64,000 nt of DNA, from NCBI GenBank assembly GCA_030583865.1, contig CP129479.1, forward strand, positions 2,637,053 through 2,701,052, in the 5' to 3' direction. The position numbers were made by a program, and so were the translations under genes. Position 1 is the stretch's first letter. Each line of letters starts with the position of its first letter. The notes under the pieces were generated by a model, which made no database searches, was not told the DNA's origin, and saw nothing but the letters and a program-made list of their open reading frames with translations. The stretch is from Thermodesulfobacteriota bacterium. Its GTDB lineage: Bacteria; Desulfobacterota; GWC2-55-46. Positions 1,348-36,920 of this stretch are shown here, piece by piece.

Positions 1348-1425
1348 GGCTATTCCTTTCTCCGGACTCCGGATTCATTTATGCGGAGGTCCGCGATGGG
1401 TTGCTCATAAACGTAATCGAATCAA

Positions 1426-1567
1426 GGCAACCTCTAAAAATTAGAGATTTTTCCCGCAATCAAGGAAGGCCGGGAATAAAAAGCGGAGCATATATGCAAA
1501 TATGTGAGCATTTTTATTCCCGGCCTGACACAGGGTCCGGGGAAAAGATCAATTTTTAGAGGTTGCC
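1426..1567. repeat. Family-1 MITE-like palindromic element, full copy
   Basis: Terminal inverted repeats GGCAACCTCTAAAAATT / AATTTTTAGAGGTTGCC. Inner stem GGCCGGGAATAAAAA / TTTTTATTCCCGGCC. Core AGCGGAGCATATATGCAAATATGTGAGCA. Near-identical copies occur at 12269, 18377, 25003 and 36782. Confidence 0.8.
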
Positions 1568-2362
1568 TCAAGATACCTTCCGCCTTGCGGCCGCGTCGAG
1601 GACCGTATAGGCGGCGCGGATCCCCAGGTAGCTCAGGTAATGGAGGCCGTTAAGGACCGCGGAATCCGTATACTTCCTTGCCACTTGAAGCTCCTCCTTG
1701 AACGTGCGGTGGAAAGAGCTCGAAGTCTTTGAGCCTGGATGCACCCTGAACAGGGCGAGCCGGTCGTCTATGAACCCCGGCGGGTATTTACGCCCGAGCC
1801 GGAGCCAGAACTCGTAGTCCATCACCCTGTGCTGCGACTCGTCAAAAAGGCCGAGCTCGCCGAAGGCCTCCCTCCTTATGAAGGTGGCCGGCTGCGATAT
1901 GAAGTTCGTGACAAGGAGTATATTATAGCCGTACCGCCGAAGCAAAAAGTTCTTGTACGCTGTTATATAGCGCCTCGTCTCCCTGCCCTTTGCGTCTATT
2001 ATCCCGCACTTGCCGGTAAGCCACAGGCATTCCGGGTGCGCCTGAAAGTACCCGGCGACTTTCTCAAGGGCCCCCGGCTCGTAGAGGTCGTCCGAGTTCA
2101 GATAGGCGATTATGTCCCCGGTCGCCTTCCTTATGCCCTTGTTTATGGCGTCGGACTGGCCCCGGTCGCGCTCCGAGACCCAGGCGAGCCGCTTCTCATA
2201 TCGTTTAAGGACATCCAGCGTTTCGTCTTTCGAGCCGCCGTCGACTACGAGGTATTCGAGTTCCGGATAATCCTGGCCGAGTACGCTTTCGATCGTGTCG
2301 CCTATAAAGCCCCCCTGGTTGTAGGAGGGCGTTATGACCGTTATCCTCGGAGGGTTCCTCAT
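1568..2362 (-). CDS. Family 2 glycosyltransferase
   Basis: ITVITPSYNQGGFIGDTIESVLGQDYP...YLVVDGGSKDET...SDDL motifs of GT2. There is a 4-nt overlap with the upstream GT4 gene. Confidence 0.8.
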   Translation of the reverse strand: MRNPPRITVITPSYNQGGFIGDTIESVLGQDYPELEYLVVDGGSKDETLDVLKRYEKRLAWVSERDRGQSDAINKGIRKATGDIIAYLNSDDLYEPGALEKVAGYFQAHPECLWLTGKCGIIDAKGRETRRYITAYKNFLLRRYGYNILLVTNFISQPATFIRREAFGELGLFDESQHRVMDYEFWLRLGRKYPPGFIDDRLALFRVHPGSKTSSSFHRTFKEELQVARKYTDSAVLNGLHYLSYLGIRAAYTVLDAAARRKVS

Positions 2363-12196: not shown

Positions 12197-12265
12197 TGTC
12201 ATTCCGAGGGAGCGTCAGCGACCGAAGAATCAGATACGAGATTCTTCGCTACGCTCAGATTGACA
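12197..12265. repeat. Family-2 palindromic element, short copy
   Basis: TGTCATTCCGAGGGAGCGTCAGCGACCGAAGAATC...GAGATTCTTCGCTACGCTCAGATTGACA; its arms are reverse complements of each other. Confidence 0.75.
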
Positions 12266-12268
12266 TAT

Positions 12269-12409
12269 GGCAACCTCTTAAAATTAGAGATTTTCCCGCT
12301 TTTCACGGAAGGCCGGGAATAAAAAGCGGCGCATAGATAATGTGTGGGCATTTTTATTCCCGTAACACTACCCAGAGTCCGGGGAAAAGATCAATTTTTT
12401 AGAGGTTGC
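12269..12409. repeat. Family-1 MITE-like element, full copy
   Basis: Same inverted-repeat termini and core as 1426-1567 with a few substitutions; lies directly next to a family-2 copy. Confidence 0.8.
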
Positions 12410-12415
12410 AAAAAC

Positions 12416-18376: not shown

Positions 18377-18519
18377 GGCAACCTCTAAAAAATTAGAGAT
18401 TTTTCCCGTAATCAAGGAAGGCCGGGAATAAAAATGCTCACATATTATCATATATGCTCCGCTTTTTATTCCCGGCCTGACACAGAATCCGGGGAAAAGA
18501 TCAATTTTTAGAGGTTGCC
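18377..18519. repeat. Family-1 MITE-like element with the central core in inverted orientation
   Basis: Termini match the other copies, but the core reads TGCTCACATATTATCATATATGCTCCGCT, which is the reverse complement of the core in copies at 1426 and 12269. Confidence 0.8.
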
Positions 18520-19319
18520 AGGGCTTCGACGAGCTGCCTGAAGGAGGGATGATACGGGCCCGCGGCAATGGATTCCTCAAGCTCTTTCCCGGGCTGGAGG
18601 CCCATGCGGATCACGGGCACGCCTGCCTCGTCAAGGAGCCGCTTGACCTGCACGCATGCCTCTGTCATTTCTTCGAGCCCCCACGGGCTGTAGAGCCCGC
18701 CTAAATACATCCTGTGCATGGCCGTGCCCTTGAGGACGAGCGAGGGATAGACCCTTACGAAATCAGGCTTGAGGGCGATTATTTTTTGGGTTGTGTCGAG
18801 TATGGTTTCAATCGAATCGCCCGGGAGGCCGGGCATGAACTGGAGGCCCACCTTGAGCCCGGCGTCTTTAAGCGCGGCCACGGCAGCTATTGTCGCATCC
18901 GGGCCGTGCCCCCTTCCGGAGAGCGCAAGCACCTTCGGGTCCATTGACTGCACACCGAGCTCTACTGTCCTTACCCCATTATGCAAAAGAAAAACAGCCC
19001 TTTGAACGTCGATGTAGTCGGGCCTGGTAGAGACCCTTATTGAATCGAGCCTGCCGTCCCTTATAAACGGGAGAGCCGCCTCGAGATAGTCTTTCTGGGT
19101 CTTTTCCGGGAGGCCGGTGAAGCTGCCGCCGTAAAAGGCGGCCTCGCGCGCGCCCTTGCCCTTCCATGTGGAAAGATAGAGCTCGATTTGCCTTGCCGCC
19201 TCCGTTGGCTCTGGCAGCTCCCTTACCGCGGATATGCCCTTCTGGTCGCAGAACACGCACTGGTGGGGGCAGCCGCCGAAAGGGATGAAGATGGGGATTA
19301 TGAGCTGCTTATGCGCCAT
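18501..19319 (-). CDS. Radical SAM protein (ELP3 / TIGR01212-like)
   Basis: IFIPFGGCPHQCVFCDQ CxxxCxxC cluster motif near the N-terminus; the last ~6 codons and the stop are encoded by the right TIR of the family-1 element. Confidence 0.7.
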   Translation of the reverse strand: MAHKQLIIPIFIPFGGCPHQCVFCDQKGISAVRELPEPTEAARQIELYLSTWKGKGAREAAFYGGSFTGLPEKTQKDYLEAALPFIRDGRLDSIRVSTRPDYIDVQRAVFLLHNGVRTVELGVQSMDPKVLALSGRGHGPDATIAAVAALKDAGLKVGLQFMPGLPGDSIETILDTTQKIIALKPDFVRVYPSLVLKGTAMHRMYLGGLYSPWGLEEMTEACVQVKRLLDEAGVPVIRMGLQPGKELEESIAAGPYHPSFRQLVEALATSKN

Positions 19320-20061: not shown

Positions 20062-20257
20062 AATACACCTCCGGCTGGTCGTGTGGCTGAAAAGATTGAC
20101 GGTGCGCGGAGCGCACCCTGCTACTGCGCTAACCCTCGCGTGCTATCACGGGGTACTTCAGCTTCCCCCTTTTCTAAAGGGGGACAGAGGGGGATTAGAA
20201 TGGTGCGCACAGCGCGCCCTACGAGATAATCTCCCCTGCCCCTCTTCAGGGAAGGTC

Positions 20258-20366
20258 TGATTGATTCGCAAATTTTGTCATTCTGAGCGAAGCGAAGAAT
20301 CTCGTATTCAGGAAAATCCGCGAGTTACGAGATTCTTCGGTCGCTTACGCTCCCTCAGAATGACAA
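20258..20366. repeat. Family-2 palindromic element with conserved GATTGATTCGCAAATTT leader
   Basis: TGTCATTCTGAGCGAAGCGAAGAATCTCG...CGAGATTCTTCGGTCGCTTACGCTCCCTCAGAATGACA. It is preceded at 20095-20255 by two further hairpin repeats, including the family-3 motif CTCCCCTGCCCCTCT. Confidence 0.8.
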
Positions 20367-20378
20367 AAATACTACTGG

Positions 20379-21695
20379 CTAAACCTTTTCTCCGGCAGCG
20401 ACAGCCCCTTTCATGCCGCCGTTTGCGGGCTCCTGAAGCTCCGCCTCCACAAGCTTTCTCTTGAGCGCGTCGTCGCCTTCGAGAAATACACGTATGTAGT
20501 TCCGCGCCCTTCCTGTAAGGAGCCCTGAGCGCCTGTCGCGGCCCCCCTCAACGAGCACGCCGGCTTTTTTGCCGATAAAATTTTGATGGAAGGCGTCCCT
20601 CTTGGCCCGATCAAGCTCCTGCAGCCTCGAACACCGCTCTTTTACGGTGCGGGGCTCGACCTGGTCTTTAAAATCCGCGGCAGGCGTGCCACGGCGTTTC
20701 GAGAACGGGAATACGTGGAGATAGGCTATCGGCAGGCCGGAGAGGATCGAATAGGTATTTTCGAATTCGGCATCTCCCTCGCCCGGAAAGCCCGCTATGA
20801 CGTCAACGCCCACGGATATCTCCGGCACGGACGCGACAAGCCTCTCGATCCTTTCGGCAAAGAGCTCCCTTGTGTAAGGCCTTCTCATGCGCTTTATGAT
20901 GTTATCATCGCCGCTCTGAAGGCAGAGGTGCAAATGGTTGCAGACCCTTTTGGCGTCTTGCAAAATTTCAATGAGCCTGTCCGTCACCTCGTCCGGGTCG
21001 AGGGAACTGAGCCTGAACCTGCACGGGTAGTCCTTTTTCTCTATAAGCTCAAGCAGCGTTGTTATGTCGGTTGATGGCGATAAGTCCGCGCCCCATGCGC
21101 CGAGGTGTATGCCCGTGAGCACCACTTCCTTGTATCCGGCTTCAACGAGAGAGTCGAACTCGCGCTCGATTTCATTCAAGGGGAGGCTCTTCGATAGGCC
21201 CCTGGCCCTGGGGATGATGCAATAGGAGCAGGCTCTTCCGCACCCTTCCTGTATCTTCATGTTGGCCCTGGTGCGGCCCGATGAGGAGCGGGCGCGAAGC
21301 GTCCAGGGCGTGCCCTCCTGCCACTGACCCAGGTCTTCCGTAATCCCCTGCCGCCTGCCGCCAAGGAGATATTCGACGATCCTTTCCTTCTCCGGGTTCC
21401 CTACCACGAAATCAACTCCGAGCGATTTCACTTCATCGGGCGAGACCTGCGCGTAGCAGCCTGTTACCACCACTATCGCGCCGGGGTTTTCCTTCCGCGC
21501 CTTCCTTATTACCTGTCGCGACTGGGTATCTGTCCTGCCCGTGACCGTGCAGGTATTTATGATATAGGCGTCGGCAGGCCCGGAAAAGGGCGCGACCTCG
21601 AATGACGCGGCGCGGAGCGCGTCCTCGAGCGCGGAAGAGTCGTACTGGTTCGACTTGCAGCCGAGGGTTGTTATGGCGACTTTCCTCACGTTCAC
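20379..21695 (-). CDS. mtaB: tRNA methylthiotransferase (MiaB-like, MtaB-type)
   Basis: VAITTLGCKSNQYDS MTTase N-terminal domain, CSYCIIP radical-SAM cluster motif and a TRAM domain. The start is ambiguous: GTG at 21695 or 21689, or ATG at 21716. Confidence 0.8.
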   Translation of the reverse strand: MNVRKVAITTLGCKSNQYDSSALEDALRAASFEVAPFSGPADAYIINTCTVTGRTDTQSRQVIRKARKENPGAIVVVTGCYAQVSPDEVKSLGVDFVVGNPEKERIVEYLLGGRRQGITEDLGQWQEGTPWTLRARSSSGRTRANMKIQEGCGRACSYCIIPRARGLSKSLPLNEIEREFDSLVEAGYKEVVLTGIHLGAWGADLSPSTDITTLLELIEKKDYPCRFRLSSLDPDEVTDRLIEILQDAKRVCNHLHLCLQSGDDNIIKRMRRPYTRELFAERIERLVASVPEISVGVDVIAGFPGEGDAEFENTYSILSGLPIAYLHVFPFSKRRGTPAADFKDQVEPRTVKERCSRLQELDRAKRDAFHQNFIGKKAGVLVEGGRDRRSGLLTGRARNYIRVFLEGDDALKRKLVEAELQEPANGGMKGAVAAGEKV

Positions 21696-22798
21696 TTCCT
21701 CGCCTCCCGTATCCATCCGCCGCCGAGCACCTCGTCGCCGTCGTAGATTACGACACCCTGTCCGGGGGTGATGGCCTTCTGGGGCTTGCCGAAGGCGACC
21801 TCTATTGATCCGTCCGGCAGCGTCTTCACCATGCAAGGCGCTTCCTCATGTCGATAGCGTATCTTCGCGGCGGCAATCAGTTTGCCGCCGCGCGCCTTTT
21901 CCATTGCCTCAGGATTTATCCAGTTTACATCAACGGCGGTAAGGCCGTTGGAATAGAGCCTTTCAGCGCTTCCCACCACGACCCTGTTCGACGGGACTAC
22001 GATGTCGAGAACATAAAAAGGGCCGCCCGAGAGGTTAAGCCCCTTCCGCTGGCCGATGGTGTAATTGAATAGGCCCTTGTGCCTTCCAAGCACATGGCCT
22101 TCAGTATCGACTATATCTCCGGGCGCGTTCGGAACGCGCGCCGATAGGAATTCCGCGTAGCTCGGCTCTTCGACAAAGCAAATCTCCTGGCTCTCTGCCT
22201 TCTCGGAAGTCCGGACGGAAAGCGAGCGCGCAAGCTCCCTTACTTCGGGCTTGGTGAGATTTCCAAGCGGAAAAAGGACGCGCCCGAGCTGTGCCTGCGT
22301 CATGGTAAAGAGGAAGTAGCTCTGGTCTTTGGAATGGTCAACGCCCTTAAGAAGGCGCATGCCCCAGGGCGCGCGCTCTATGCGGGCGTAGTGGCCTGTT
22401 GCGAGATAGTCTGCTTCAAGGCCGAGGGCCTTATTAAGCAGCACCTCGAACTTCAGGACCTGGTTGCATTTTATGCAGGGGTTTGGGGTGGAGCCGCTGG
22501 AATAGGACGAGACGAAGTAATCGACGACCTCGCGCGAGAAGGCCTCTTCCACGTTAACGACGTAGAAGGGCACACCGAGGCTGTCGGCCACGCGCCGCGC
22601 GTCGTGGATGTCGTCGAGGGAGCAGCAGCTTCCGGCGGTTGCGCCGCTCCCTTCCTCTCTTTCGAGTTCTTTTTTGGAGTAGTCCCAGAGCTGCATCGAG
22701 ACGCCGATGCATTCATAGCCCTGCTCCTTGAGGAGAGCAAGGGCTGTGGATGAATCAACGCCGCCGCTCATGGCGACTACCGCCTTCTTTCGGGACAT
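21692..22798 (-). CDS. mnmA: tRNA-specific 2-thiouridylase
   Basis: VVAMSGGVDSS PP-loop and the overall MnmA architecture. Confidence 0.9.
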   Translation of the reverse strand: MSRKKAVVAMSGGVDSSTALALLKEQGYECIGVSMQLWDYSKKELEREEGSGATAGSCCSLDDIHDARRVADSLGVPFYVVNVEEAFSREVVDYFVSSYSSGSTPNPCIKCNQVLKFEVLLNKALGLEADYLATGHYARIERAPWGMRLLKGVDHSKDQSYFLFTMTQAQLGRVLFPLGNLTKPEVRELARSLSVRTSEKAESQEICFVEEPSYAEFLSARVPNAPGDIVDTEGHVLGRHKGLFNYTIGQRKGLNLSGGPFYVLDIVVPSNRVVVGSAERLYSNGLTAVDVNWINPEAMEKARGGKLIAAAKIRYRHEEAPCMVKTLPDGSIEVAFGKPQKAITPGQGVVIYDGDEVLGGGWIREARK

Positions 22799-22832
22799 TC
22801 CGTAAGTCCTCGGCCCTTGAAAAACGGCTCTA

Positions 22833-22856
22833 AAAGGGGTAATCCCCTTAATTTTA
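22833..22856 (-). terminator. Putative intrinsic terminator downstream of hicB
   Basis: AAGGGGTAATCCCCTT hairpin followed by a T-run on the minus-strand transcript. Confidence 0.45.
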
Positions 22857-22985
22857 ATAAAGAATCAGACGTTTTGCCAGAGAAAAGTTGGGGGGAGGAA
22901 ACGCAGGACGGATTTCAGGGAACATCTGATTGGTTCGCGAATGTTTGTCATTCTGAGCAAAGCGAAGAATCTGTATTTATGAATA

Positions 22986-23201
22986 TTACTCGTTTACGGC
23001 TATGTACTCCGCAAAAGAGGATGATTCGGGAATGGGGAGATTGTCTTCCTTCATGCCGCGGATATGGAGCTCGACGGCCTCGTGCATGTTACGCTCGGCT
23101 TCCTCGCGCGTCGCGCCGGTTGCAACACAGCCGGGGAGGTCGGGCGAGTATGCGGAAAAATTATTGTCCGCCTTTTCAATCACGATAAGAAAACGATGCA
23201 T
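22986..23201 (-). CDS. hicB: HicB-family antitoxin (UPF0150)
   Basis: MHRFLIVIEKADNNFSAYSPDLPGCVATGATREEAERNMHEAVELHIRGM is a classic HicB N-terminal domain with an AAGGAG RBS. No hicA was found nearby. Confidence 0.8.
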   Translation of the reverse strand: MHRFLIVIEKADNNFSAYSPDLPGCVATGATREEAERNMHEAVELHIRGMKEDNLPIPESSSFAEYIAVNE

Positions 23202-23444
23202 TATTTTTTCTCCTTGTGGGTAACTATTCAGTTTATTCCTTTTGGGTGGATTTCGTCAAGACAGAATGGCAGGCACAGCAATTATGTAAATGGCTTGTAT
23301 ACTGGATTGAATATGCGGTATAAAAAGAACAAGAACTGGTGGGCGGAGCCCACCGGCGACTGGCGAGAAGCCATCTCGCCCTTCATGGGAAAGTGGTGTG
23401 CCTACCGGAACCTTGGAAGCAGATTCCGCTCCACGGGCTAATTA

Positions 23445-24200
23445 ATGAAGAAAATAAGACCAAATTCTTTGACCAACGCGCCTCTCCAGTATGCACCACA
23501 AAATGAAATCGGTGTCGTCTATCTTTTTGCTCACATTGCACGCAAAAAACAATTTCGCATTGAAGAAATTCGCCCTCAATTCCCCGATTGTATTGCATAT
23601 CGACGAAGTGGTGACCGTGAGAAGCTTGTCAGGATTGAATTTGAATTTCGATCAAGCAATTTCAAATCACATGGTCACGATCCCAAAAAATGTGATTGTA
23701 TAGTATGTTGGCATCATGATTGGCCTGATTGTCCCTTAGAAGTAATTGAATTAAAAAAAGAATTTCATTCCGTACCAAAGATTTGGATTCAGCCGGCGAG
23801 GGAAGATCAGTGGCACTGGCTGGAAAATTCAAAAAGGGTTTCATGGGGCATTTCTAAACGCGCCACTATCGGCGACCTATTGCTCATATACCGATGTCGT
23901 CCAGAAAAGACTATCAAGGAAATTTACACACTAATTGGGGAAAAACATAGAGGAAAAGCTGATTGGAGAGAAGGTGACTGTTACATTGGAAACATACAGC
24001 GGTTGTGTTTATTAGAAGCGCCCATTTTTTTCGAGGACCTGAAGTCTCATCGTGTCCTTAAGACTGCTGGGTTTGTACGTCGTAATCTACAGGGCAATCT
24101 TCTTGTTTCAGAATATTGGCCATATATTCATGATATGATCGTTAAAAGAAATCCGAAGGTAGCAAAAATACTTAAAAACTATGACCCGATGAAATTATGA
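23445..24200 (+). CDS. Hypothetical protein with C-terminal PUA-like (EVE/ASCH-type) signature and possible N-terminal PD-(D/E)xK-like nuclease motif
   Basis: C-terminal half: W..ISKRATIGDLLLIYRC...IKEIYTLIGE, resembling the EVE core GDxvLfYhS...ivGiaeV. N-terminal half: FPDCIAY...VRIEFEFRSSNFK. It is AT-rich and divergent from hicB. The call is based on motif recognition only. Confidence 0.45.
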   Translation: MKKIRPNSLTNAPLQYAPQNEIGVVYLFAHIARKKQFRIEEIRPQFPDCIAYRRSGDREKLVRIEFEFRSSNFKSHGHDPKKCDCIVCWHHDWPDCPLEVIELKKEFHSVPKIWIQPAREDQWHWLENSKRVSWGISKRATIGDLLLIYRCRPEKTIKEIYTLIGEKHRGKADWREGDCYIGNIQRLCLLEAPIFFEDLKSHRVLKTAGFVRRNLQGNLLVSEYWPYIHDMIVKRNPKVAKILKNYDPMKL

Positions 24201-24335
24201 AAAAAAATGGGTCTTCACCATTTTCTGTGGGTAGATTTGTGAGCCTTGTAGTTTGGGTTAGCGGAGCGTAACCCAACAAATTATATTCCTAAACCAGATT
24301 GCCGCGCTACGCTCGCAATGACATCCAAAAAACCA

Positions 24336-24365
24336 AAGCCCCCCGGGTCTCCCCGGGGGGCTTTT
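24336..24365. terminator. Bidirectional intrinsic terminator
   Basis: AGCCCCCCGGGTCTCCCCGGGGGGCTTTT GC-rich hairpin with T-runs on both strands. It terminates the plus-strand island ORF and minus-strand nifU. Confidence 0.7.
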
Positions 24366-24392
24366 CAATTCCAATCTTTTTCCCGCCTGAAA

Positions 24393-24773
24393 CTACTTCG
24401 CCGTACCGGCGAGCTTCTTCTTGTAGTCCTCTATTGCCGCGTGGAGGGCGTCTGCCGCGAGGTTCGAACAGTGCATCTTTACGGGCGGGAGGCCGTCGAG
24501 GGCCTCGGCGACCGTGCTGTTCGATATCTGCTCGGCCTCATCGAGCCCCTTGCCCTTAACAAGCTCCGTAACCATCGAGCTCGTCGCGATGGCCGCGCCG
24601 CAGCCGAAGGTCTTGAACTTCACGTCGGTTATCACGTCGTTCTCGACCTTGATGCTGAGCTTCATTATGTCGCCGCACGCCGGGTTGCCCACCGTGCCCG
24701 TTCCGTCCGCGCCCTCTACCTCGCCCACGTTCCTGGGGTTTGAGAAGTGGTCCATCACCTTTTCGCTGTACAT
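24393..24773 (-). CDS. nifU: Fe-S cluster assembly scaffold protein NifU/IscU
   Basis: NPACGDIMKL...FKTFGCGAAIA...HCSNLA, three conserved Cys of the IscU fold. Confidence 0.9.
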   Translation of the reverse strand: MYSEKVMDHFSNPRNVGEVEGADGTGTVGNPACGDIMKLSIKVENDVITDVKFKTFGCGAAIATSSMVTELVKGKGLDEAEQISNSTVAEALDGLPPVKMHCSNLAADALHAAIEDYKKKLAGTAK

Positions 24774-24855
24774 TTTCGTGGCTCCTGTCTATTTCGCCTG
24801 TTGGTTGTTTGAGAAGCTTCCTTCTATGTAGTTTCTGAATGGGCCTTTCGCCCGG

Positions 24856-24952
24856 TTGATTGCAGATTCGAATTCTGTCATTCTGAACGAAGTGAAGAAT
24901 CTGGTTTGGTTGAAATACGAGATTCTTCGTCGCTTCGCTTCTCAGAATGACA
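24856..24952. repeat. Family-2 palindromic element
   Basis: GATTGCAGATTCGAATTCTGTCATTCTGAACGAAGTGAAGAATC...GAGATTCTTCGTCGCTTCGCTTCTCAGAATGACA; followed by the family-3 motif CTCCCCCTGCCCCTCTTTAAGAAAGAGGGG at 24961-24990. Confidence 0.8.
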
Positions 24953-25002
24953 CTCTTAATCTCCCCCTGCCCCTCTTTAAGAAAGAGGGGTGAATTAAAT
25001 AA

Positions 25003-25129
25003 AGATTTTTCCCCGCTTTTCCAGAAGGTCGGGAATAAAAAGCGGAGCATATATGACAATATGTGAGCATTTTTATTCCCGGCCTGACAAAGAGTCCGGG
25101 GAAAAGATCAATTTTTATAAGACAATTCT
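25003..25129. repeat. Family-1 MITE-like element with degenerate termini
   Basis: The core GGGAATAAAAAGCGGAGCATATATGACAATATGTGAGCATTTTTATTCCCGGCC is conserved, but the outer TIRs have diverged. Confidence 0.75.
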
Positions 25130-25150
25130 ATTCCAACTCCGGTTTCCTTG

Positions 25151-26332: not shown

Positions 26333-26402
26333 GCCTCCCTTTTCTCTTCATTTACTCTTAGGATCTGATACCCCGCCGCTTGCGGTCGTGTTTGCTTTTG
26401 AC

Positions 26403-26486
26403 TCCTCCCCCTTGATGGGGGAGGCTGGGAGGAGGTGAAGAGGTTTCACCCTCCCCTCTTATCCCCTCCCATCAAGGGAGGGGAGG
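26403..26486. repeat. Long palindrome between iscR and nifS
   Basis: CTCCTCCCCCTTGATGGGGGAGG ... CCTCCCATCAAGGGAGGGGAGG: inverted arms about 40 bp apart. Confidence 0.6.
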
Positions 26487-29448: not shown

Positions 29449-29522
29449 GGATTGAATACGAGATTCTTCGGTCGCGGAGTTTACCCTGAGCGAAGCGAAG
29501 GGCCTCGTTCTGCAGAATGACA
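29449..29522. repeat. Family-2 element, rearranged copy
   Basis: GATTGAATACGAGATTCTTCGGTCGC ... CTGAGCGAAGCGAAG ... CAGAATGACA. Confidence 0.6.
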
Positions 29523-36776: not shown

Positions 36777-36781
36777 TTGAG

Positions 36782-36920
36782 GGTTCCTCTAAAAATCAGA
36801 TATTTTTTCCGAGGTCGAGGCAGGGCGGAAATAAAAAGCGGAGCATATATGTCAATATGTGAGCATTTTTATTTTCGCCCTAACGAAGAGGTCGGGAAAA
36901 AGAGCGATTTTAGGGGGACC
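36782..36920. repeat. Family-1 MITE-like element, degenerate copy
   Basis: Core GGAAATAAAAAGCGGAGCATATATGTCAATATGTGAGCATTTTTATTTTCGCC with diverged termini. Confidence 0.7.

What the first reader, a model, noticed from the sequence alone, without database searches (positions are those of the whole stretch)
12197..12265. Family-2 palindromic elements (GTCATTCTGAGCGAAGCGAAGAATC...GATTCTTCG..CGCT.CGCTC..CAGAATGAC) dispersed through the window
Short copies lie at 12197-12265 (immediately abutting a family-1 copy), 20276-20366, 24876-24952 and, rearranged, 29449-29522. Split arms occur at 22946-22975 and 24305-24330. Each short copy is a near-perfect long hairpin. Three copies carry a conserved non-palindromic leader, GATTG(A/C)(T/A)(T/G)(A/T)TTCG(C/A)AAT. 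That leader gives the element polarity and argues for a transposition-derived rather than purely structural origin.
Basis: seen in the sequence. Interest (0 to 1): 0.5.

Follow-up and report, generated by a model that had tools for sequence, protein, structure and literature searches.

The report
REP-like hairpin repeats of Ssn nucleases
The repeats are real: they are pairs and single copies of a short, tagged DNA hairpin from an already described, widespread class of bacterial intergenic repeats, which in other genomes flank the gene of a small single-strand-DNA nuclease (Ssn).

Summary
Family-2 is real and far beyond chance. The window holds three head-to-head hairpin dimers (12197-12265, 20276-20365, 24876-24952) and three lone arms (22946-22971, 24297-24323, 29462-29522). 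The unit is one ~25-34 nt arm, T|GTC-ATTCT-GAGCGAAGCGA-AGAAT-C. It has an unpaired 5' TGTC tag, its own covariation-supported stem-loop, and a C after the stem.

The exact 25-mer occurs in at least 120 stretches of species-representative genomes labelled with more than ten phyla, and in 35 viral contigs. Arms of this class are 38-fold enriched within 250 bp of small GIY-YIG nuclease genes (72 of 80 loci). These genes are homologues of Neisseria SsnA. This matches two published descriptions: CGTC/TGTC-tagged REPs (Di Nocera 2013) and Ssn-related motifs bound and cut as ssDNA by Ssn nucleases (Chenal 2025).

The published SRM search pattern does not match this variant. No ssn gene lies in the window.

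Copies are present or absent at orthologous sites in close relatives, and there are no target-site duplications. They behave as mobile, but not as a classical MITE. The "split arms" are unrelated singletons. The leader is a lineage-specific extension.

Verdict: a new member of a known kind, of modest interest.

The parts
12197..12265 (.). Head-to-head dimer A between surA and pdxA. The long-loop arm is 12198-12231 on the + strand. The short arm is 12240-12264 on the - strand. It abuts a family-1 element at 12266.
   Evidence: z = -3.45. An orthologous copy is present in L242 and absent in L245.
20257..20273 (+). Leader CTGATTGATTCGCAAAT, 3 nt upstream of the T|GTC tag of dimer B.
   Evidence: It is shared with 22926-22942 and with the non-syntenic L151 copy.
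20276..20365 (.). Head-to-head dimer B, 15 nt after the mtaB stop and upstream of rnc. The short arm is 20277-20301 (+) and matches the 25-mer exactly. The long-loop arm is 20331-20364 (-).
   Evidence: I6; z = -7.28. It is present in L243, L244 and L254 and absent in L242 and L245. A short-read contig of this genome ends inside it.
22926..22971 (+). Leader (22926-22942) plus a lone short arm (22946-22971, 1 mismatch to the 25-mer), upstream of mnmA.
   Evidence: There is no counterpart in L242.
24297..24323 (-). Lone arm of the ATTGC/GCAAT stem type (GTCATTGCGAGCGTAGCGCGGCAATC on the - strand). It lies directly after the intrinsic terminator of nifU.
   Evidence: ortholog in L242 at 7452; terminator at 24364-24335.
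24856..24875 (+). Weak leader-like stretch (TTGATTGCAGATTCGAATTC) upstream of dimer C.
   Evidence: It was not recovered at up to 3 mismatches.
24876..24952 (.). Head-to-head dimer C between nifS and nifU. The short arm is 24877-24901 (+). The longer arm is 24921-24951 (-).
   Evidence: z = -4.87. The orthologous spacer in L242 is 133 bp and has no arm.
29462..29522 (-). Lone arm with an enlarged loop that contains a nested core (CCCTGAGCGAAGCGAAGGG).
   Evidence: (z = -0.9).

Best explanation
Family-2 consists of head-to-head dimers and singletons of a TGTC-tagged, REP-like DNA hairpin. It belongs to the class published as CGTC/TGTC-tagged REPs and as Ssn-related motifs (SRM; NTS in Neisseria).

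Each arm reads (T/C)GTC, then a stem-loop (A-N-N-C-Y, a tandem G.A, R-C, a GNA loop, then the closing half), then C. Shown here: in other genomes arms of exactly this type flank the roughly 90-aa single-domain GIY-YIG gene ssn on both sides.

Inferred from the biochemistry published for Neisseria and Wolbachia homologues: when DNA is single-stranded (replication, transformation, conjugation), the G-rich strand of an arm folds. An Ssn nuclease binds it and cuts a few nucleotides 5' of the tag. dsDNA, RNA and the opposite strand are not cut.

A head-to-head dimer puts one cleavable arm on each strand. The unequal loops keep the palindrome imperfect.

The repeats spread without target-site duplication and accumulate, together with other repeat families, in mosaic intergenic spacers. 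How they are copied is not known. In this window they are non-autonomous copies, and no ssn gene is present in the 64 kb.
For: Anatomy.
- The 5' boundary is sharp in 174 copies from 155 loci.
- Position -1 is T in 131 of 147 dimers and C in 12.
- The intra-arm stem covaries: 47 doubly changed cells against 11.6 +/- 4.4 in shuffles (0 of 500 shuffles reach it). Five of 7 pairs are compensatory, 87.7% of cells are paired, and slid registers give at most 48%.
- The tag, the outer stem ATTC/GAAT and the 3' C are identical to the Neisseria NTS CGTCATTCCCGCG..CGGGAATC (PMC11893778; sequences).

Association with ssn.
- Arm heads and tails occur at 5.41 per kb within 250 bp of 80 diverse GIY-YIG genes, against 0.143 per kb beyond 500 bp.
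- 72 of 80 loci have an arm within 250 bp.
- 21 loci show cassettes of the form T|GTCA..ORF..TGAC|A, 361-464 bp long.
- All 80 genes match the gonococcal SsnA ORF at E < 1e-10.
- Over-long gene calls read through arms on both sides.
- Cultured examples: Planktothrix, N. gonorrhoeae, Azospirillum, Spirosoma and S. meliloti.

Literature.
- Di Nocera 2013 (PMC3733652): the tag is CGTC or TGTC, stems start with A-T, most elements are head-to-head dimers, heterodimers are common, and no transposase is known.
- Chenal 2025 (PMC11893778): Ssn cuts ssDNA only, upstream of the hairpin. The C after the palindrome is critical for binding, and the three nucleotides before the palindrome are critical for cutting.

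Mobility.
- Copies are present or absent at the mtaB-rnc, nifS-nifU and surA-pdxA sites among syntenic relatives.
- A non-syntenic copy in L151 is 84% identical.
Against: - The published SRM search pattern HGTCWYN(0-2)YYVSBRHN(0-5)WNVSBRGN(0-2)RNCYNB matches none of the 7 window arms tested, although it matches NTS.
- No ssn homologue lies in the window or in about 60 kb of syntenic relatives. Whether this genome encodes the nuclease is unknown.
- Nearest-neighbour energies give single arms no significant stability (z about 0). Support for the arm hairpin rests on covariation and on non-canonical G.A / GNA motifs that the energy model does not credit.
- Only 3 of 155 loci chosen for the exact arm carry ssn nearby, so most copies are far from any nuclease gene.
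- No Ssn enzyme has been tested on this sequence variant.
Confidence: 0.82

Rival explanations
1. A classical MITE. On this view the long hairpin is the pair of terminal inverted repeats of an internally deleted DDE-type insertion sequence, moved by cut-and-paste with target-site duplication.
For: The repeats are inverted and 70-90 bp long, dispersed in intergenic DNA, and present or absent among relatives. Gene-bearing versions of 361-464 bp with the same ends exist.
Against: There are no target-site duplications: 134 of 147 dimers have none, as in the permuted control. The only gene found between such ends is a 90-aa GIY-YIG nuclease, not a DDE transposase. More than half of exact arms are singletons, 93 of 165. 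Each arm carries its own covarying stem-loop.
Confidence: 0.04
2. GTAG-type REP/REPIN elements mobilised by a RAYT (HUH Y1 transposase), or by an IS200/IS605 TnpA.
For: The overall logic is the same: a tagged hairpin, head-to-head dimers, no duplication, and a cognate gene flanked by its repeats (PMC3733652, PMC3116915).
Against: The tag is TGTC or CGTC, not GTAG. Unbiased clustering of ORFs within 1 kb of arms found no recurrent family. Di Nocera 2013 found no Y1 transposase flanked by CGTC repeats.
Confidence: 0.04
3. Purely RNA-level or structural elements, such as transcription terminators, attenuators or mRNA-stabilising hairpins, with no link to a nuclease in this organism (orphan or exapted repeats).
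For: All copies are intergenic, several lie just downstream of stop codons or inside operons (mtaB-rnc, nifS-nifU), and the long hairpins are very stable. REPs in other bacteria are credited with such roles (PMC3733652).
Against: No family-2 copy is followed by a T-run, and none is called terminator-like, whereas the real nifU terminator at 24364-24335 is. Rfam gives no match. The conserved features are the unpaired tag and the arm-internal stem, not the long hairpin. Identical arms across many phyla argue for a shared protein partner. This reading can coexist with the best explanation as a secondary effect.
Confidence: 0.1

Closest known systems
Ssn-related motifs (SRM), or NTS repeats in Neisseria, with their Ssn GIY-YIG ssDNA nucleases (Chenal et al., Nat Commun 2025, PMC11893778)
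   Same: An unpaired 5' (C/T)GTC tag, a stem opening with ATTC...GAAT, and a C directly after the palindrome. The motif is directional and almost exclusively intergenic. Repeats flank ssn genes on both sides (NTS-ssnA-NTS) in many phyla. The genes next to family-2-type arms meet the paper's homology criterion to SsnA.
   Different: The inner stem and loop is TGAGC-GAA-GCGAA (tandem G.A plus a GNA triloop) instead of CCGCG-MAVG-CGCGG. The published degenerate search pattern fails on all window arms. No ssn gene lies in the window. Cleavage of this variant has not been tested.
CGTC-tagged REP superfamily (Di Nocera et al., BMC Genomics 2013, PMC3733652). It includes Neisseria dRS3 and Rickettsia RPE-4 and RPE-6.
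   Same: The tag is CGTC, often TGTC. Stems are 8-9 positions long and begin with A-T, T-A. Most elements form head-to-head dimers, often as heterodimers with unequal loops. They are sometimes embedded in larger lineage-specific palindromes. No transposase is associated.
   Different: The loop is 3 nt rather than 4-5, and the stem is interrupted by a tandem G.A. The tail is CTC or CTG rather than CCA. That paper listed five phyla, whereas this variant is found in many more.
REP / BIME / REPIN elements with RAYT (TnpA-REP)
   Same: A tagged hairpin as the unit, inverted doublets that can fold as one long hairpin, no target duplication, a cognate nuclease gene flanked by its own repeats, and mosaic intergenic clusters.
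   Different: The tag differs (GTAG) and the enzyme fold differs (HUH Y1 versus GIY-YIG). No RAYT was found here.
IS200/IS605 insertion sequences
   Same: Subterminal ssDNA hairpins are recognised on one strand, cleavage is offset from the hairpin, and there is no duplication.
   Different: Those elements have non-inverted ends and a Y1 transposase (with or without TnpB). Transposition by Ssn has not been shown.

Membership tests
Ssn-related motif (SRM/NTS), PMC11893778 | A directional hairpin with a conserved unpaired HGTC immediately 5' of the palindrome | tested here: met
   All window arms read T-GTC-A.... Position -1 is T in 131 and C in 12 of 147 dimers across loci.
Ssn-related motif (SRM/NTS), PMC11893778 | A cytosine directly after the palindrome (the base most critical for SsnA binding) | tested here: met
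   The arms read ...AGAAT-C in dimers B and C and in the lone arm at 22946-22971, and GCAAT-C in the lone arm at 24297-24323. C is the consensus at the last column of alignment A5, which the extraction pattern did not force.
Ssn-related motif (SRM/NTS), PMC11893778 | A match to the published search sequence HGTCWYN(0-2)YYVSBRHN(0-5)WNVSBRGN(0-2)RNCYNB | tested here: not met
   None of the 7 window arms tested match, whereas NTS matches. The two matches elsewhere in the window look like chance hits. The pattern requires a G+C-rich inner stem.
Ssn-related motif (SRM/NTS), PMC11893778 | Repeats of this type flank genes of SsnA homologues (single-domain GIY-YIG, cd10448) | tested here: met
   72 of 80 loci have an arm within 250 bp of the gene. 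The density is 5.41 per kb near the gene against 0.143 per kb far from it. 21 loci show L-gene-R cassettes. All 80 genes hit the gonococcal SsnA ORF at E < 1e-10. CDD cd10448 itself could not be queried.
Ssn-related motif (SRM/NTS), PMC11893778 | The genome carrying the repeats encodes an Ssn nuclease | tested here: inconclusive
   There is none in the 64-kb window or in about 60 kb of syntenic relatives. The rest of the genome is not available. The paper reports ssn in 81% of genomes with more than 200 SRMs.
Ssn-related motif (SRM/NTS), PMC11893778 | Binding and cleavage by Ssn on ssDNA only, a few nucleotides 5' of the motif, on one strand only | not testable with these tools
   This needs purified enzyme and oligonucleotides.
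CGTC-tagged REP superfamily, PMC3733652 | A CGTC or TGTC tag, a stem of 8-9 positions starting A-T, T-A, and a short loop | tested here: met
   The covarying stem runs from A5-T25 to C13-G17 in alignment A5. The loop is 3 nt and the stem carries a tandem G.A, which is a variant of the published geometry.
CGTC-tagged REP superfamily, PMC3733652 | Predominantly head-to-head dimers, often heterodimers | tested here: met
   The window has three head-to-head heterodimers (25-nt arm plus 31-34-nt arm). Of exact arms elsewhere, 72 of 165 have a partner within 150 nt.
GTAG REP / RAYT | A GTAG tag and an associated Y1 (HUH) transposase | tested here: not met
   The tag is TGTC.
Classical MITE | Terminal inverted repeats plus a target-site duplication | tested here: not met
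   134 of 147 dimers have no flanking direct repeat, and the permuted control gives 141.

The most novel reading that the evidence does not exclude
The GTCAYYCTGAGCGNAGCGAAGRRTC arm class and ssn together form a minimal autonomous mobile cassette of 361-464 bp: arm, 90-aa GIY-YIG ssDNA nuclease, arm. It would move through single-stranded DNA without target duplication and spread horizontally across more than ten phyla and into phages. The window's dimers and singletons would be its non-autonomous derivatives, still expanding in this lineage. That would make Ssn the long-missing 'transposase' of the CGTC/TGTC REP superfamily and a new enzymatic class of prokaryotic transposition.
Probability: 0.3. 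Interest if true: 0.7.

Novelty: new member of a known kind. Interest (0 to 1): 0.35.

Why it matters
It assigns an unannotated repeat family in an uncultured lineage to a class with a known protein partner and known biochemistry.

It shows that the published SRM search pattern under-counts the class. A very widespread variant, whose exact 25-mer occurs in genomes labelled with many phyla and in viral contigs, is invisible to that pattern although it flanks ssn genes just as tightly.

It adds comparative evidence on two points. The arm-internal stem covaries, with a conserved tandem G.A and GNA loop. The repeats come and go at orthologous sites without target duplication. Both bear on the open question of how these repeats are copied.

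The practical value is in annotation, because these arms cause spurious ORF extensions and assembly breaks, and in choosing new Ssn/target pairs for ssDNA tools.

Tried and rejected
- **Rfam.** The gathering search of the whole window and a permissive search of 20230-20400 gave nothing meaningful. There are no tRNAs.
- **Literature search by sequence.** The exact arm is not in the held library. Keyword searches for GIY-YIG with MITE or palindrome terms first gave nothing relevant. The decisive paper surfaced only when GIY-YIG was combined with dRS3 and CGTC.
- **Unbiased clustering of ORFs within 1 kb of 174 exact arms.** No shared family appeared apart from related phage genes. The association shows only when one starts from the nuclease gene.
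- **HUH transposases.** None were found.
- **Target-site duplications.** None were found.
- **Intrinsic-terminator reading.** No copy qualifies.
- **'Split arms' as one element interrupted by a 1.3-kb insertion.** Rejected, because the arm types differ and one arm is conserved alone in L242.
- **Single-arm thermodynamic stability.** Not significant with standard parameters.
- **Exact insertion junctions from filled and empty sites.** The spacers are too diverged, and one relative has a different C-terminus in MtaB.
- **Pfam and NCBIfam on the two island ORFs.** No hits.
- **Closest solved structure for the nuclease.** Only the uncharacterised UPF0213 protein BH0048, 1ZG2.

Full report
**Observation.** The 25-mer GTCATTCTGAGCGAAGCGAAGAATC with up to 3 mismatches occurs 4 times against 0.00 expected. 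Its terminal 11-mer occurs 9 times against 1.33 expected.

Reading the sequence gives three head-to-head dimers and three lone arms:
- Dimers: 12197-12265, 20276-20365 and 24876-24952.
- Lone arms: 22946-22971 on the + strand, and 24297-24323 and 29462-29522 on the - strand.

The three dimers fold far better than shuffles as ssDNA (z = -7.3, -4.9, -3.5). The 'rearranged' copy does not (z = -0.9). It is one arm with an enlarged, nested loop. All copies are intergenic: surA-pdxA, mtaB-rnc, upstream of mnmA, downstream of nifU, nifS-nifU, and next to a PLD-family gene.

**The unit is the arm, not the long palindrome.** In 174 occurrences of the exact 25-mer from 155 fetched loci, similarity stops sharply at GTCATTC. 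Only 72 of 165 such arms have a partner within 150 nt.

I then took arms from loci that were not selected by arm sequence. These show a stem inside each arm: A-N-N-C-Y, G.A/A.G, R-C, a GNA loop, then the closing half.
- 47 cells carry changes on both sides, against 11.6 +/- 4.4 in shuffles (0 of 500 shuffles reach it).
- Five of 7 pairs show compensatory changes.
- 87.7% of cells are paired, against at most 48% in slid registers.

Pairing between the left and right arms cannot explain covariation within one arm. Standard DNA energy parameters do not rate single arms as stable. They give no credit to the tandem G.A pairs or to the GCGAAGC-type mini-hairpin. That this mini-hairpin is unusually stable is my own knowledge, not a tool result.

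Outside the arm, position -1 is T in 131 of 147 dimers and C in 12. The mirrored position +1 is A in 134 of 147.

**Distribution.** The exact 25-mer is found in 35 IMG/VR contigs. The genome records are labelled Nitrospirota, Acidobacteriota, Ignavibacteria, Bacteroidota, Chloroflexota, Cyanobacteria, Planctomycetota, Verrucomicrobiota, Firmicutes, Patescibacteria, Campylobacterota and others. They include isolates and complete genomes.

**Partner gene.**
- *Starting from the arms.* Clustering all ORFs within 1 kb of arms found no common family. Three loci did have a small GIY-YIG gene tightly bracketed by arms. Over-long gene calls of its homologues read through arms on both sides, for example 'VILSEAKNLSVTVLA' upstream and 'RDSSLRSE*' or 'VSF' downstream.
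- *Starting from the gene.* This gave the decisive result, using 80 metagenome loci with homologues at 47-82% identity. Arm heads and tails occur at 5.41 per kb within 250 bp of the gene and 0.143 per kb beyond 500 bp. 72 of 80 loci have one within 250 bp. 21 loci show a clean cassette of the form T|GTCAYYCTGAG...ORF...CTCAGRRTGAC|A, 361-464 bp long.
- *Cultured organisms.* Annotated records show the same layout with (C/T)GTC-tagged hairpins: a Planktothrix plasmid, N. gonorrhoeae (dRS3-type repeats), Azospirillum lipoferum (between sufB and sufC), Spirosoma and S. meliloti. The Novosphingobium aromaticivorans gene is instead flanked by a different, untagged palindrome.

**What is already known.** Di Nocera et al. 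2013 (PMC3733652) defined a CGTC-tagged REP superfamily:
- The tag is often TGTC.
- Stems start with A-T.
- Most elements form head-to-head dimers, and heterodimers are common.
- The superfamily includes Neisseria dRS3 and Rickettsia RPE-4 and RPE-6.
- No dedicated transposase was found.

Chenal et al. 2025 (PMC11893778) showed that such repeats flank ssnA, a 94-aa single-domain GIY-YIG protein (cd10448). The repeats are called NTS in Neisseria and 'Ssn-related motifs' in general. Their main findings:
- SsnA binds the hairpin only as ssDNA and cuts a few nucleotides upstream. It does not cut dsDNA, RNA or the reverse strand.
- The C after the palindrome is critical for binding, and the three nucleotides before the palindrome are critical for cutting.
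- The system lowers transformation by NTS-bearing DNA in N. meningitidis.
- 71% of ssnA homologues have an SRM nearby.

The window arm shares the tag, the outer stem ATTC/GAAT and the 3' C with NTS. All 80 GIY-YIG genes used here meet that paper's homology criterion against the gonococcal SsnA ORF. My association result is therefore an independent rediscovery of a published one, not a new finding.

**What differs from the published description.**
- The published SRM search pattern matches none of the 7 window arms I tested, though it matches NTS. It expects a G+C-rich inner stem, whereas this variant has TGAGC-GAA-GCGAA. The variant is therefore probably under-counted in that study.
- No ssn homologue lies in the window or in about 60 kb of syntenic DNA from relatives. 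Whether this organism encodes the enzyme is open.

**Mobility and the leader.** The window is syntenic with GCA_019912665.1 (L242, MtaB 89% identical) and GCA_002418185.1 (L243, 87%). A more distant relative (L245, 71%) shares the mnmA-mtaB-rnc block but is rearranged beyond it.

| Site | Arm present | Arm absent or different |
|---|---|---|
| mtaB-rnc | window, L243, L244, L254 | L242 (89-bp spacer), L245 (genes overlap), L253 (an unrelated repeat in the same spot) |
| nifS-nifU | window | L242 |
| surA-pdxA | window, L242 | L245 |

The orthologous 20 kb holds three dimers and three singletons in the window, but one dimer and one singleton in L242. Flanking direct repeats are no more frequent than in a permuted control.

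The leader CTGATTG(A/G)TTCGC(A/G)AAT precedes two window arms. It also precedes a non-syntenic copy in another MAG (L151, 84% identity over 124 bp). It is therefore part of a lineage-specific version of the repeat. Other lineages embed the dimers in their own outer palindromes, as Di Nocera noted for Halothiobacillus neapolitanus.

Polarity exists even without the leader, for two reasons. Each arm is directional, and each dimer pairs a 25-nt arm with a 31-34-nt arm.

The two 'split arms' are independent singletons. Their stem types differ, and the nifU-proximal arm is conserved alone in L242.

**Rivals.**
- A classical MITE is disfavoured by the lack of duplications, the lack of a DDE transposase, and the many singleton arms.
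- A RAYT/HUH system is disfavoured by the tag and by the absence of Y1 genes (weak evidence).
- A terminator role is not supported by sequence, because there is no T-run and the true nifU terminator lies beside one arm. Effects on transcripts remain possible as a side effect.

**Verdict.** This is a real repeat family, correctly spotted. It is best filed as a new sequence variant within the known CGTC/TGTC-REP / Ssn-related-motif class. How such repeats are copied is still unknown. The IS-like cassette reading remains a hypothesis, raised in PMC11893778 and compatible with the cassettes and polymorphisms seen here.

Noticed in passing
window 1425-1568, 12266-12410, ~18380-18520, ~24985-25130, ~36780-36920: The 'family-1' element is a nested palindrome of about 145 bp (AGGCAACCTCTAAAAATT...AGGCCGGGAATAAAAA...). 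Its core gives 10 hits against 0.71 expected. It is absent from the orthologous surA-pdxA and nifS-nifU spacers of L242, so it too varies by insertion.
   Followed up: partly
window 22975-24296: A low-GC (0.50) island lies between the two lone arms. It holds a HicB-like antitoxin ORF (22986-23201, - strand; Pfam HicB_lk_antitox in the identical Logan contigs). It also holds a 251-aa ORF (23445-24200) with no Pfam or NCBIfam hit. The same position carries different cargo in relatives: a pentapeptide-repeat gene in L242, and HicA plus MerR-HicB in L243, L253 and L254.
   Followed up: partly
window 26402-26485; L253 4796-4839: A third repeat, CTCCTCCCCCTTGATGGGGGAGGCTGGGAGG, occurs as an inverted pair in the window. 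In relative L253 it sits directly after the mtaB stop, exactly where the window has family-2 dimer B.
   Followed up: partly
window 20228-20246 and ~24958-24985: The short motif AATCTCCCC(C)TGCCCCTCTT lies next to two family-2 dimers. It is on the leader side of one and on the far side of the other. The intergenic spacers look like mosaics of several repeat families.
   Followed up: no
L236-L241, L244, L253, L254 (short-read contigs of this lineage): Short-read contigs tend to end in repeats. L236 covers window 20340-25053, starting inside dimer B and ending inside a family-1 copy. Several contigs stop 40-60 nt after mtaB.
   Followed up: partly
L001-L035 (IMG/VR contigs): The exact 25-mer arm occurs in 35 viral contigs. 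One group of related phage contigs (L005, L021, L025, L026, L035) carries it in a spacer among shared phage genes. Whether phages use it or are targeted through it is unknown.
   Followed up: no
L247 1838-1885 and 1965-2045; also L036, L139, L140: There are tandem arrays of truncated arm heads (TGTCATTCTGAGTTCTCCTGTGC x3) and truncated tails (GCATTCAGGATGACAATTTTTATCTGT x3) beside an ssn gene, with similar head or tail ladders in other loci. This could reflect repeated partial copying or slippage at the cleavage side of the arm.
   Followed up: no
L249 (Azospirillum lipoferum 4B plasmid AZO_p3, 255506-255799): An ssn gene with a hairpin dimer on each side sits between sufB and sufC, inside a conserved operon.
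   Followed up: no
L248 (N. gonorrhoeae 2022NG-0032, about 1195-1470): In this strain the ssnA reading frame changes within the first ~10 codons. An ATG-led frame stops early, and the conserved frame lacks an obvious start. This may be a frameshifted allele.
   Followed up: no
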